A stretch of 64,000 nt of DNA from Giardia intestinalis (lineage: Eukaryota): NCBI GenBank assembly GCA_000002435.2, contig CM018793.1; one strand, given 5' to 3'. A program made the position numbers. Below, one piece after another: positions 24,001 through 27,000 of this stretch (positions are counted from its first letter, which is position 1; each line of letters opens with the position of its first letter).

Positions 24001-27000
24001 TGGCTGTTTCTTGGTAGTGGGCTCTCTGAAATAGAACTTGTTGCTGCGGGGTTCTCTTGATCAATTGGGACTTCTTTGGTTGCTGTCTCCAGGATTACTT
24101 GAGGCGCAGATGGAAGGGGAGATATAGGTAATGTTGGGGACGCATAATTGGAAGGATGAGCGCTAATCGTAACCAGGGGAGACTCTGACCTGTCCTCTGG
24201 TTGCCGCCTAACACTTCCAGTAAGTTCCTGGAAGGTGTCTGATCCATCCAGCTGCTCGCCTTGAAGCACTGCCCGAACAGAGATCGCAGCAACGGCAGCA
24301 GCTACTGGAGGTCGGGGAACAATAGGCAGTGACGATGATAGACTGTCCCGCACCGAAGTTGCGGTGCATTGGGCATTGGCAGACTCGCTTAGAGAGGTGT
24401 TGTTCAGCACGCTCTCTTCTACAGTGCCAGTAACAACAGACTCGATCTTATTCTCCTTGACCGAACAGTCGATCTTTATTGAATCCACTTTTAGAACAGC
24501 TGTCATGGGGTTGAGCTTTATAGCATCGTGAATGGCTGACGATACAGTATAAGCGATTGAACCCCGCTCCAACTCATGTACGTGCTCTAAATTCGCACCG
24601 GTCACGGAAGCTTCTACCTCGACAGGAAAGCCAGAAGCAGGGTCGGACTCCGAAGTAAGTCCACTGTTCTTGACGGGTTGAACCCGGTGGATCCTAGTAA
24701 CAGTATACGTCTGCTCTGGCGGGGGGACTTGTGGAGAATTTGAACTGTGTATTTGTTTTTTGGACAAAGACGGGCTTTTTCTTTTAGTAATTCGCACGGC
24801 AATTGCTCTTGGTGAGAATAGTTGCTGCTGTGAACTCGCCTTTTTAAGCATGGAATCCTGTAGGTCTGGTTGCGCGCTTGCAATGGAAATATTGCAACAA
24901 TCAGTGCTTGCGTCTATGCCTGATGTGCTATCTCTGACTTTGATTGCCGTTACAGGCTGCGGACTTGTAATGGGGGCATCCGAAGGTGAAGGCGAAGATA
25001 GAGGCAAACCTGCTCTTTCTTCTAGATATGTTCTATCCTGTTTGTCCTGATTCTGTATATTATTTGCAGATATATTAGAAATAGATTTGGTTTTGGGCAC
25101 TCGTTCCAGAATGCAAGACAGAGAAGACACCATTACCTCCTCTTCCATGGTAGTGTGACTATGAGGCTCTGACTCAATAGGACATGTTTTATCTTGCCGT
25201 TCTTTCATAACTACAGTATTAATATGTGTATTTTTTTGAGCAAGCGATAGCTCCTTTGTTGCACGAGCTGTACCCACTGAGAAGGGTAATTCCTCTGTAT
25301 TTTCATTATCTACGTCTACCTCATAAAAGTCTGTTACAGCAGATATTGGAACAGGCTCAACGGCCTGGTGAAAGCAATGTATTGGCGATGGTGATCTATT
25401 AGATATTGCCATATGATCAAGCTTCAGTGTGTTTTGATCTACATGCCTTCCTATTCCTGGCGTCACAGTTGGGGTTATCCCGCACGCAATGGGTAATTCA
25501 GAAAGATATGACAGATCGGTCCGCTGCTTTGCAGATATTGGGATAGTTGTAGGGAAGGTGTCCAGTAAGCTCGCTGCATTACCGCCGCTACAATTAACAA
25601 GCTCATCGCCCACCCCACTAGTAGCAGTCATTCTGCTCAGTTCCACTATTGGGCGAGAGTCTATGACAGTGACAGGCTCGCTAACCGCTGTAAGTGACGC
25701 TCTCTCGTCAATGACAATGCTATCTTGCAGATATATATCCAGGACCCTAGATGTCTGTACAGAGCACTGAGAGAGCTCCGCACCATTTGACTGATATAAG
25801 TGATGCATAGCTGACGCAGGAAAGTTAATTCCAGTGGGGCTTATAGTATAGCCTAAGAACTGGGACGCGTGCTTGTTTTCGAAATCGGTTGAAAACTTTC
25901 TTATGTCGTCTATGAAATCTTGGCGCTGCGGTAACAACTGATCAAATTGTGAAAGACTTGAGGCGTTTGCGCTCATCGGCGTGCAGAATGGGCATGCTGT
26001 TTCTGCTGACGAGAATATAGAGCCGGAAATAAGCAGAATAAGATATTTGCGATCATCAGTAGAGAGAAGCGATATCTTTCCAGTGTCTGCGAACAGAAAC
26101 TTAAGGAGATCAGATCCTTCTATCCCTGTGGCTAAACACCGATTCAAACAGGTCCTACAACAGGTCCTCAATAGATGGTTATATAGATTTGCCGAACCAG
26201 GGCCGAGGTCGACAACAGTGGTCGGCAAGTGCATCTCAGTACAATCTGGAAAAACCGAAAGGATAAACCCCTGAGTAGACCCCAATGAGCCCAGATCGAT
26301 TAAGAGCTGTTTAAAGAGCTGCGTACTGCATACACATTCCGGCAGTAAATCCTGCAATACAGCCTCGTCGCCCACACCAGCACAATCCTCAAATTTCTCA
26401 AGAGATAGCTCCATGCTGAGCGCTTTAAAGAGATCAACAAGATCTGCCATGCACTGGGACATTGGGCTTCCTATTATATGTTGCAAAAGCCGCAATTTGA
26501 TGTCTAAAAGCCTTGTTGGGTGCATTTTCAATTTTTTGGTCTTGGTGCTTCCACCGCTGAGGTCGAATGTGGAGCAGATTTCGAACGAGGATGTAGAGGT
26601 GATTCGCTCTGCAATCGCTGTGTAAATCTTTGCTTAGCATCAGTCTTGTTGGCTCGCTGGATTGCTATTAGGTCTGAAATGGCTTTCTCTCTGTCCTGCA
26701 AAGCCACCAGCTCTTTGAGTGAGACCCTAATTCTCTTCTGTTCTGCATCGAGAAGGGCTTTTCTTGCTTCTTGCTTGCTGACTGTCTGGGCCACAACGCG
26801 GGCCTTGAACCTAGCTTCGGAGTCCAGCATCTGTATTCGCGCTTGGACTATCCTTTGGTGCTTCTCCTCTAATTCTTTATCGTACTCTTCTGAAAGAGTA
26901 GCGTATGCTGCTGCCAGCTCCTGACGTAGTACGGCCACCGATGCTCGTTTGGACTGTTCAAGTTCAGTCTTACGTGTTCTTATGTTTTCTTTGATGCTTA

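What the first reader, a model, noticed from the sequence alone, without database searches (positions are those of the whole stretch)
26520..26535. Two large same-strand ORFs separated by 2 nt and a one-base frame offset: possible single ~1,580-aa gene or extreme gene packing
On the minus strand the coiled-coil ORF ends with TGA at 26530-26528. The next ORF begins with ATG at 26525-26523, the first ATG in its frame, since the track's 26531 start is TTG. No promoter space exists between them. Either one base is missing or extra, in the assembly or as a real frameshift, and the two form a single coiled-coil plus Ser-rich protein. Or the downstream gene's initiator lies inside the upstream coding sequence.
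Basis: seen in the sequence. Interest (0 to 1): 0.55.

Follow-up and report, generated by a model that had tools for sequence, protein, structure and literature searches.

The report
Two tightly packed Giardia genes
The window is Giardia intestinalis WB, and the two ORFs are separate, already annotated genes (GL50803_14534 and GL50803_90665) packed 2 nt apart, with the second gene's conserved A/T-rich start element lying in the last codons of the first; this is ordinary for Giardia.

Summary
On the minus strand the sequence reads CCA AAA AAT TGA aa ATG. The TGA is at 26530-26528, the ATG at 26525-26523 and the TTG at 26531-26529. The downstream ORF lies in the -1 frame. The window is Giardia intestinalis WB C6. 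The ORFs are the annotated genes GL50803_14534 (346/357 aa, one long helix) and GL50803_90665 (1226 aa, Ser/Pro-rich).

The single-gene reading fails on four counts.
- The exact proteins recur on 151 and 163 independent contigs, so this is not an assembly error.
- Five other Giardia lineages keep two ORFs, each with its own stop and a conserved initiator Met.
- The stop-to-ATG gaps are 2, 1, 9, 10 and 28 nt, covering all three phases, with three different stop codons.
- The third-codon-position substitution pattern switches frame at the junction.

AAAAAATTGAAAATG is one of only eight blocks with at least 14 of 15 positions invariant in a 4,958-column alignment. It matches 10 of 11 positions of the published Giardia transcription-start consensus. 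Giardia has 5' UTRs as short as 1 nt and a median intergenic distance of 81 bp. So this is extreme but known gene packing.

One point stays open: the upstream gene has no canonical AGURAA poly(A) signal nearby. Interest is low.

The parts
26528..27568 (-). GL50803_14534 coding sequence. The current model is 346 aa and starts MRASG. The older 357-aa model starts at ATG 27601. The protein is a long single-helix or coiled-coil protein with a disordered, variable C-terminal tail.
   Evidence: Exact match to XP_001707615.2 / XP_001707615.1. M1 of the 346-aa model is conserved in six lineages. Helix at residues 100-321 with pLDDT above 90, tail at 322-346 with pLDDT below 50. Third-position substitution bias lies in this frame.
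26528..26530 (-). TGA stop codon of GL50803_14534. The predicted transcription start of the next gene is at its last base, A 26528 (inferred).
   Evidence: The stop is TGA in assemblages A and B, TAG 28 nt upstream of the ATG in assemblage E, and TAA in two further lineages. The TSS position is inferred by aligning AATTGAAAATG to the TSS-seq consensus AATTTAAAATG, whose 6th base is the start site (PMC3792122).
26523..26537 (-). Conserved block AAAAAATTGAAAATG. It is read as the A/T-rich initiator (core promoter) plus start codon of GL50803_90665. It overlaps the last three sense codons and the stop of GL50803_14534.
   Evidence: It is one of 8 windows with at least 14 of 15 invariant columns among 4,958 columns in four divergent lineages (alignment). 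The exact 11-mer AAAAATTGAAA occurs only twice in 64 kb, both times abutting the ATG of an ORF longer than 1000 aa.
26531..26537 (-). A_AAA_AAT heptamer in the zero frame of GL50803_14534. It is formally a -1 frameshift 'slippery' shape. It is judged incidental, being part of the initiator A-run.
   Evidence: Sequence. There is no downstream structure beyond chance (z = -0.14). The -1 relation holds only in assemblage A; other lineages are +1 or in phase with a stop.
26527..26532 (-). ATTGAA hexamer overlapping the stop codon. It is the only poly(A)-signal-like hexamer near the end of GL50803_14534, one base off AGTGAA. A role in 3' end formation is speculative.
   Evidence: A[AGT]T[AG]AA within -40..+150 of the stop finds only this hexamer in A, B and L001, plus one ATTAAA in E; no AGTRAA on this strand between 26528 and 23045.
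22845..26525 (-). GL50803_90665 coding sequence, 1226 aa from ATG 26525. The older model of 1205 aa started at Met22. The protein is Ser/Pro/Thr-rich and restricted to the G. intestinalis species complex.
   Evidence: Exact match to XP_001707618.2. The N-terminus M-x-x-x-RLLD-x-KLRLLQHI is conserved from the first Met in four lineages. Third-position substitution bias lies in this frame from the ATG on. There is no relative outside the complex. Polyadenylated nanopore reads are reported for this gene (PMC9014877 Table S2).
27566..27596 (-). Conserved 31-nt block TGGTATGAATTCAAAGAAGTGTTGTAAAATG ending in the start codon of GL50803_14534. It is the likely core promoter, inside a 50-nt divergent spacer shared with the + strand gene starting at 27619.
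   Evidence: It contains the longest invariant run in the five-lineage alignment.
22664..22695 (-). First canonical poly(A) signals after the GL50803_90665 stop: AGTAAA at 22690-22695 and AGTGAA at 22664-22669. They lie antisense inside the convergent 102-aa ubiquitin/SUMO-like ORF (22488..22796 +).
   Evidence: The positions are conserved in assemblages A, E and B.

Best explanation
These are two independent protein-coding genes of Giardia intestinalis WB. GL50803_14534 encodes a 346-aa long-helix protein and GL50803_90665 encodes a 1226-aa Ser/Pro-rich protein. They lie head-to-tail with 2 nt between the stop and the start.

The downstream gene is most likely transcribed from its own minimal promoter. 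That promoter is the conserved A/T-rich initiator AAAAAATTGAAA immediately 5' of its ATG. The initiator lies inside the last four codons (P-K-N-stop) of the upstream gene. It would give an mRNA with a leader of only about 3 nt, as is usual in Giardia. The part of the upstream protein encoded over the promoter is a disordered, fast-evolving tail. That DNA is therefore free to serve the neighbour. The A/T-rich element also supplies stop codons in several frames, so indels in the tail simply move the stop.

Shown here: two ORFs, each under purifying selection in its own frame. Separate orthologues in six lineages. Variable phase and stop codon. An invariant 15-nt block at the ATG.

Inferred: the block is the initiator and transcription starts at about 26528.

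Not resolved: where the upstream mRNA is cleaved and polyadenylated.
For: - **Organism and genes.** Pfam hits to Giardia VSP and NEK/ankyrin in the window. Exact matches to XP_001707615.1/.2 and XP_001707618.1/.2 on a 4.02-Mb WB contig.
- **Not an assembly error.** The exact products occur on 151 and 163 contigs. The junction is identical in L005 and L007. The reference is 200x PacBio, Quiver-polished (PMC7000408).
- **Separate orthologues.** Lengths are 1200-1234 aa and 343-357 aa, with none fused. Gene calls are adjacent in five loci.
- **Variable junction.** The stop-to-ATG gap is 2 (A1, A2), 1 (B), 28 (E), 10 (L001) and 9 (L008) nt. The phases are 2, 1, 1, 1 and 0. The stops are TGA, TGA, TAG, TAA and TAA.
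- **Frame switch.** Substitutions peak at codon position 3 of the upstream frame before the junction and of the downstream frame after it, e.g. 74 of 119 before and 296 of 444 after against assemblage E.
- **Conservation.** Both start-proximal blocks are among only 8 highly invariant windows in 4,958 columns.
- **Initiator match.** The block matches 10 of 11 positions of the TSS-seq initiator variant AATTTAAAATG. Giardia 5' UTRs can be 1 nt (PMC3792122). The re-annotation moved 626 start codons to sit behind A-rich motifs (PMC7000408), and both genes have revised starts.
- **Packing is the norm.** The median intergenic distance is 81 bp in G. intestinalis (PMC7641422). In this window other tandem gaps are 31, 49 and 58 nt, divergent gaps 17-40 nt and convergent gaps 17-34 nt.
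- **Unconstrained tail.** The upstream C-terminal tail is disordered and variable.
Against: - No transcript ends were available for these two genes. The TSS at about 26528 and the independence of the two mRNAs are inferred from consensus and conservation.
- The upstream gene has no canonical AGURAA signal on its strand for about 3.4 kb after its stop in assemblages A and B. Some read-through into the downstream gene therefore cannot be excluded.
- The block differs from the commonest initiator variants at one position (G instead of A/T).
Confidence: 0.93

Rival explanations
1. This is a single ~1,583-aa gene that appears split because of a one-base assembly or sequencing error in the A6 run, or because of a recent real frameshift mutation in this strain.
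For: The junction contains a homopolymer (A6, 26532-26537) of the kind prone to indel errors. The downstream frame is open for 108 nt upstream of the ATG in assemblage A.
Against: - The exact upstream product, ending PRPKN-stop, occurs on 151 independent contigs, and the downstream product on 163.
- The junction is identical in an A2-like metagenome contig and in another run.
- All five other lineages have two ORFs with a stop and a conserved Met, in three different phases. No ancestral fused gene is indicated.
- No fused homologue exists among 5.8 billion clusters or 1.84 billion representatives.
Confidence: 0.01
2. Programmed -1 ribosomal frameshifting on the zero-frame heptamer A_AAA_AAT, just before the TGA, produces a minor 14534-90665 fusion protein in gag-pol fashion.
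For: The heptamer has the canonical X_XXY_YYZ shape and sits immediately before the stop. A -1 slip reads ...PKN-LKMHPTR... into the downstream frame. From general knowledge, Giardia ribosomes perform -1 frameshifting on Giardiavirus RNA.
Against: - It needs a transcript spanning both genes.
- The 111 nt downstream fold no better than shuffles (z = -0.14; 83 of 200 shuffles fold as well).
- The -1 relation exists only in assemblage A. In B, E and L001 the downstream frame is +1. In L008 the two are in phase across a TAA.
- The heptamer's conservation is therefore explained by its being part of the initiator rather than by frameshifting.
Confidence: 0.02
3. The two genes form a bicistronic unit. 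The upstream mRNA lacks a poly(A) signal of its own and runs through GL50803_90665 to the AGTAAA/AGTGAA signals at 22690/22664. The downstream ORF is then translated from this RNA by termination-reinitiation (stop and start 1-2 nt apart), in addition to or instead of from its own promoter.
For: - No AGTRAA occurs on the sense strand between the upstream stop and 23045 in the window. The same is true for about 3.4 kb in B, and for 640-870 nt in E and L001.
- Franzen et al. found sense poly(A) clusters inside 25% of WB ORFs and suggested read-through from upstream ORFs as one cause (PMC3610916).
Against: - About 35-40% of validated Giardia cleavage sites lack AGUAAA or AGUGAA anyway (PMC9014877), so the absence of the canonical hexamer is weak evidence.
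- The invariant initiator-like block at a fixed distance from the ATG argues for independent initiation.
- The stop-to-start distance is not conserved (1-28 nt), which is unlike coupled termination-reinitiation.
- A search found no paper in the library linking Giardia cellular genes to polycistronic mRNAs.
Confidence: 0.1

Closest known systems
Giardia A/T-rich initiator core promoters with ultrashort 5' UTRs (Holberton & Marshall 1995; Yee 2000; Elmendorf 2001; TSS-seq consensus of Tolba et al. 2013, PMC3792122)
   Same: It is an ~11-nt A/T-rich element directly abutting the ATG. It matches the listed variant AATTTAAAATG at 10 of 11 positions. An A-run precedes the start, as in the genome-wide start-codon logo (PMC7000408). 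It is conserved across assemblages.
   Different: Here the whole element lies inside the coding sequence and stop codon of the preceding same-strand gene rather than in an intergenic spacer. There is a G at the position just 5' of the predicted start-site A.
Genome compaction and overlapping genes in diplomonads (G. intestinalis median intergenic 81 bp; G. muris 37 bp, with 9.5% of genes overlapping; PMC7641422)
   Same: The spacer between genes is very short. Regulatory signals of one gene are embedded in its neighbour. The same window shows tandem gaps of 31-58 nt and convergent or divergent gaps of 17-40 nt.
   Different: A 2-nt tandem gap is at the extreme low end for G. intestinalis. The two ORFs do not actually overlap if the ATG is used.
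Dual-use stop codon and poly(A) signal (AG-UAA / AG-UGA) in Giardia and Spironucleus (PMC9014877; PMC3916229)
   Same: A PAS-like hexamer (AUUGAA) overlaps the UGA stop in the same register as AG-UGA-A.
   Different: Position 2 is U, not the strongly preferred G. No cleavage site is known for this gene, so function as a signal is unproven.
Retroviral/totiviral gag-pol -1 frameshift sites, including Giardiavirus
   Same: An X_XXY_YYZ heptamer sits just before the stop of ORF1, with ORF2 open in the -1 frame.
   Different: There is no stimulatory structure. The frame relation is not conserved among lineages. ORF2 has its own conserved AUG and initiator.

Membership tests
Giardia A/T-rich initiator (core promoter at the start codon) | An A/T-rich ~10-11-nt element matching the TSS consensus lies within a few nt of the ATG | tested here: met
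   AATTGAAAATG matches AATTTAAAATG at 10 of 11 positions (Table 3 of PMC3792122; sequence). The -15..-1 region is 80% A+T, a level reached by 1.9% of internal in-frame ATGs.
Giardia A/T-rich initiator (core promoter at the start codon) | The element is under selection beyond the needs of the overlapping coding sequence | tested here: met
   The block is invariant across A, E, B and L001, while the flanking codons of the upstream tail carry substitutions and frame-changing indels.
Giardia A/T-rich initiator (core promoter at the start codon) | A transcription start site is mapped inside the element | not testable with these tools
   The TSS-seq and long-read supplements held as text do not contain a 5' end for GL50803_90665.
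Single gene split by sequencing error or frameshift | Orthologues elsewhere are one continuous ORF | tested here: not met
   All hits are 1200-1234 aa or 343-357 aa. Two adjacent gene calls are present in five loci.
Single gene split by sequencing error or frameshift | The junction sequence is not reproducible between assemblies | tested here: not met
   The exact products occur on 151 and 163 contigs. The junction is identical in L005 and L007.
-1 programmed ribosomal frameshift | A slippery X_XXY_YYZ heptamer lies in the zero frame | tested here: met
   A_AAA_AAT at 26537-26531, in the frame CCA AAA AAT TGA.
-1 programmed ribosomal frameshift | A stimulatory RNA structure lies 5-9 nt downstream | tested here: not met
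   MFE is -23.4 kcal/mol against a shuffle mean of -22.9; z = -0.14.
-1 programmed ribosomal frameshift | The frame relation is conserved among relatives | tested here: not met
   Gap mod 3 is 2 in A, 1 in B, E and L001, and 0 in L008.
Bicistronic mRNA with termination-reinitiation | One mature transcript carries both ORFs | not testable with these tools
   No read-level RNA data were available. The only indirect hint is the lack of AGURAA after the upstream stop.
Bicistronic mRNA with termination-reinitiation | Stop-start proximity is conserved | tested here: not met
   Gaps are 1, 2, 9, 10 and 28 nt.
Dual-use stop codon / AGURAA poly(A) signal | AG immediately precedes a UAA or UGA stop followed by A | tested here: not met
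   The sequence is AU-UGA-A, not AG-UGA-A.

The most novel reading that the evidence does not exclude
The invariant 15-nt block would be a shared, multi-purpose signal. It would serve at once as the last codons and stop of GL50803_14534, a non-canonical poly(A) signal (AUUGAA) for that gene, and the initiator and start codon of GL50803_90665. The upstream mRNA would then end inside the first codons of the downstream gene, while the downstream mRNA begins inside the upstream stop codon. Alternatively, lacking any usable signal, the upstream gene is expressed as a bicistronic RNA. That would be the first documented cellular case in Giardia.
Probability: 0.2. Interest if true: 0.4.

Novelty: already known. 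Interest (0 to 1): 0.1.

Why it matters
It matters little beyond this locus. The result confirms that the current GiardiaDB/NCBI gene models (separate genes, ATG at 26525) are right. It also shows that a 'no room for a promoter' argument does not apply to Giardia, where the core promoter is a ~10-nt A/T-rich element at the start codon. The locus is a clean example of a promoter embedded in the disordered C-terminal tail codons of the preceding gene. It could serve as a test case for how Giardia forms 3' ends when there is no AGURAA signal and no intergenic space.

Tried and rejected
- **Pfam scan of both proteins:** no families found.
- **Concatenated 1,583-aa query, looking for fused homologues:** it returned only downstream-type proteins of 1200-1234 aa.
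- **HMMER search of the downstream N-terminal 420 aa against 1.84 billion representatives, looking for a G. muris or other diplomonad orthologue that might be fused:** it returned only the G. intestinalis-complex cluster.
- **Literature full-text search for the two gene IDs:** no papers found.
- **Supplement searches for transcript ends.** PMC9014877 lists GL50803_90665 in the poly(A)-tail table (13 + 1 nanopore reads). The 3' UTR table is truncated as stored and contains neither gene. The PMC3610916 hit was a coordinate substring, not the gene. The PMC3792122 supplements have nothing.
- **Short Logan contigs L006 and L007, fetched in the hope of transcript-derived contigs with poly(A) ends:** L006 stops before the junction. 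L007 spans both genes, but its DNA or RNA origin cannot be told.
- **RNA fold downstream of the heptamer:** no signal.
- **First structure job:** It was repeated without that row.
- **AGTRAA offsets:** these were mis-computed and were redone. The stop, gap and phase values stand.
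Full report
**Observation.** The minus strand at the flagged site reads ...GCACCAAGA CCA AAA AAT TGA AA ATG CAC CCA....
- The upstream ORF (26528..27634 in the mechanical list) ends with TGA at 26530-26528.
- The next ORF is listed from TTG 26531 (22845..26531, 1228 aa). Its first ATG is at 26525-26523.
- Two bases (26527-26526) separate the stop and the ATG, and the downstream frame is the upstream frame minus one.

**What the window is.** Pfam finds Giardia variant-specific surface protein domains, a NEK-type kinase with ankyrin repeats and EGF-like cysteine-rich proteins in neighbouring ORFs.
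- Exact-sequence look-up identifies both products as Giardia intestinalis WB clone C6 proteins on a 4.02-Mb contig.
- The upstream ORF is GL50803_14534. It is XP_001707615.1 at 357 aa and the revised XP_001707615.2 at 346 aa, starting at ATG 27568.
- The downstream ORF is GL50803_90665. It is XP_001707618.1 at 1205 aa from Met22 and the revised XP_001707618.2 at 1226 aa, starting at ATG 26525.
- The revised starts belong to the 2020 re-annotation. That work moved 626 start codons using orthologue alignments and the A-rich motif that precedes Giardia start codons (PMC7000408).
- The TTG 'start' is a table-11 ORF-caller artefact. One deposited A2 annotation (DHA2_152772, 1230 aa, 'MKMHPTR...') uses it.

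**Is it an error?** No.
- The exact 357-aa product, whose C-terminus PRPKN-stop depends on the A6 run, is recorded on 151 contigs. The 1205-aa product is recorded on 163 contigs from independent sequencing runs.
- An A2-like metagenome contig (L005) and another run (L007) have the identical junction.
- The reference assembly is 200x PacBio with Quiver polishing (PMC7000408).

**One gene or two?** Protein searches returned only separate homologues. They are 1200-1234 aa for the downstream protein and 343-357 aa for the upstream one. None is fused. I fetched the orthologous loci from assemblage E (P15, L004), assemblage B (L002/L003), an A2-like lineage (L005) and two more divergent lineages (L001, about 70% identity; L008, about 66%). 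In every one the two ORFs are adjacent on the same strand, but the junction differs:

| Lineage | Stop codon | Gap to ATG (nt) | Phase (gap mod 3) |
|---|---|---|---|
| A1 / A2 | TGA | 2 | 2 |
| B | TGA | 1 | 1 |
| E | TAG | 28 | 1 |
| L001 | TAA | 10 | 1 |
| L008 | TAA | 9 | 0 |

- All three phase relations occur, three different stop codons are used, and the ATG is invariant.
- The downstream proteins all begin at that Met (MHPTRLLDIKLRLLQHI / MLPVRLLD... / MFTVRLLD...).
- The upstream proteins have C-terminal tails that differ in length and sequence.
- Substitutions between lineages peak at the third codon position of the upstream frame before the junction. Against assemblage E the counts are 26/19/74 at positions 1/2/3.
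- After the junction they peak at the third position of the downstream frame (86/62/296).
- These results exclude a single ancestral or current gene.

**What the junction is.** In a five-lineage alignment of the whole two-gene locus (4,958 columns, 55% invariant among four divergent lineages), only eight 15-nt windows have at least 14 invariant columns. Two of them end exactly at the two start codons.
- One is AAAAAATTGAAAATG at the junction (window 26537-26523).
- The other is a 31-nt block, TGGTATGAATTCAAAGAAGTGTTGTAAAATG, ending at ATG 27568 of the upstream gene.
- The junction block is flanked on its 5' side by poorly conserved tail codons with frame-changing indels. Its conservation is therefore not explained by the upstream protein.
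- The AlphaFold model of that protein shows a single helix over residues 100-321 (pLDDT above 90) and a disordered tail from residue 322.
- The block matches 10 of 11 positions of the variant AATTTAAAATG of the transcription-initiation consensus derived from TSS-seq. In that consensus the central A is the main start site.
- The same paper and earlier work report 5' UTRs mostly under 20 nt and as short as 1 nt (PMC3792122).
- By that alignment, transcription of GL50803_90665 would start at about 26528, the last base of the upstream stop codon. This would give a 3-nt leader (inference).
- The exact 11-mer AAAAATTGAAA occurs only twice in the 64-kb window. Both copies directly abut the ATG of an ORF longer than 1000 aa (26525 and 37193).

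**Context.** Tight packing is the rule here.
- With crude first-ATG models, tandem gaps in the window are 2, 31, 49, 58, 139 nt and upward. Divergent start-to-start gaps are 17-40 nt and convergent gaps 17-34 nt.
- Published figures are a median intergenic distance of 81 bp for G. intestinalis and 37 bp for G. muris, where 9.5% of genes overlap (PMC7641422).
- The 2-nt gap is thus the extreme end of a known distribution rather than an anomaly.

**Frameshifting considered.** In assemblage A the last sense codons form a canonical A_AAA_AAT heptamer in the zero frame. A -1 slip there would read into the downstream frame (...PKN-LKMHPTR...). Three results argue against this.
- The 111 nt downstream fold no better than shuffled sequence (z = -0.14).
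- The -1 relation is absent in B, E, L001 and L008.
- The downstream ORF has its own conserved AUG.

I treat the heptamer as an accidental by-product of the initiator's A-run.

**What remains open.** Giardia uses AGURAA as its poly(A) signal, usually 13-15 nt before the cleavage site, with a median 3' UTR of 59 nt. About 60% of validated sites have AGUAAA or AGUGAA (PMC9014877).
- On the sense strand there is no AGTRAA between the GL50803_14534 stop and 23045, about 3.5 kb away. The same holds for about 3.4 kb in B, and for 640-870 nt in L001 and E.
- The only signal-like hexamer is ATTGAA, part of the conserved block, overlapping the stop in A and B.
- Another tandem junction in the window (4302/4334) carries the nearly identical AAAAAAGTGAA with a canonical AGTGAA. 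This hints that such A-rich blocks can double as 3' end signals.
- It could not be decided whether GL50803_14534 mRNA ends at a weak AUUGAA-directed site inside the first codons of its neighbour or reads through. The stored supplements show only that GL50803_90665 yields polyadenylated nanopore reads.
- Franzen et al. noted sense poly(A) clusters within 25% of ORFs and proposed read-through as one cause (PMC3610916).
- I found no paper in the library reporting polycistronic cellular mRNAs in Giardia.

**Verdict.** The 'single gene' interpretation is rejected and the 'extreme packing' interpretation is supported. The genes and their boundaries are already annotated in this way, and the mechanism (a minimal A/T-rich initiator at the ATG with near-leaderless mRNAs) is established Giardia biology. 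Both proteins remain of unknown function. The downstream one has no detectable relative outside the G. intestinalis species complex. Novelty is 'already known' and interest is low.

Noticed in passing
window 27566-27619: GL50803_14534 (ATG 27568, minus strand) and the 550-aa + strand ORF (ATG 27619) are divergent, with only 50 nt between their start codons. A 31-nt block ending at ATG 27568 is invariant in four divergent Giardia lineages. It is probably a compact bidirectional promoter.
   Followed up: partly
window 22488-22845: GL50803_90665 ends 48 nt from a convergent 102-aa ubiquitin/Rad60-SLD (SUMO-like) ORF (22488..22796 +). The first canonical AGTAAA/AGTGAA signals after the 90665 stop (22690-22695, 22664-22669, minus strand) lie antisense inside that ORF. 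The two mRNAs must therefore overlap at their 3' ends.
   Followed up: partly
window 23045-26528, minus strand: There is no AGTRAA hexamer on the sense strand for about 3.5 kb after the GL50803_14534 stop. Only the conserved ATTGAA overlaps the stop. How this gene's mRNA 3' end is made is unexplained.
   Followed up: partly
window 37191-37203, minus strand: The same 11-mer, AAAAATTGAAA, directly abuts the ATG of another large ORF (33921..37193, 1090 aa). These are the only two exact copies in the window.
   Followed up: no
window 4300-4336, plus strand: Another tight tandem junction reads TGA gtagAAAAAAGTGAAttcggctttgctagct ATG, a 31-nt gap. A canonical AGTGAA sits inside an A-run very like the block at 26527-26537.
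   Followed up: no
window ~24900-24930 (GL50803_90665 codons ~515-525): There is an in-frame Ser-Pro dipeptide repeat length polymorphism among assemblage A isolates: SSPSPSD in WB, SSPSPSPSD in the A2-like lineage and SSPSPSPSPSD in another contig.
   Followed up: no
window ~25393-25418 and ~24495-24521, minus strand (rel. +1108..+1133 and +2005..+2031 of the 90665 CDS): Two blocks inside the GL50803_90665 coding sequence are invariant at the nucleotide level across four lineages, synonymous sites included. They are GATCATATGGCAATATCTAATAGATC and ATAAAGCTCAACCCCATGACAGCTGTT. The cause was not examined. It could be strong protein constraint or an embedded nucleic-acid signal.
   Followed up: no
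L008 1971-1985 (SRR17450158): In a divergent Giardia lineage (about 66% protein identity) the two ORFs are in the same phase, separated only by TAA plus 9 nt. The automatic gene call there starts the downstream gene at a later Met.
   Followed up: yes
window 6053-8260 and 14926-17082: Two GC-rich (about 60%) VSP genes lie on opposite strands and have near-identical 3' ends and 3' flanks (...CATGA cttaggtAGTAAAcgc...). This suggests a recently duplicated inverted VSP pair.
   Followed up: no
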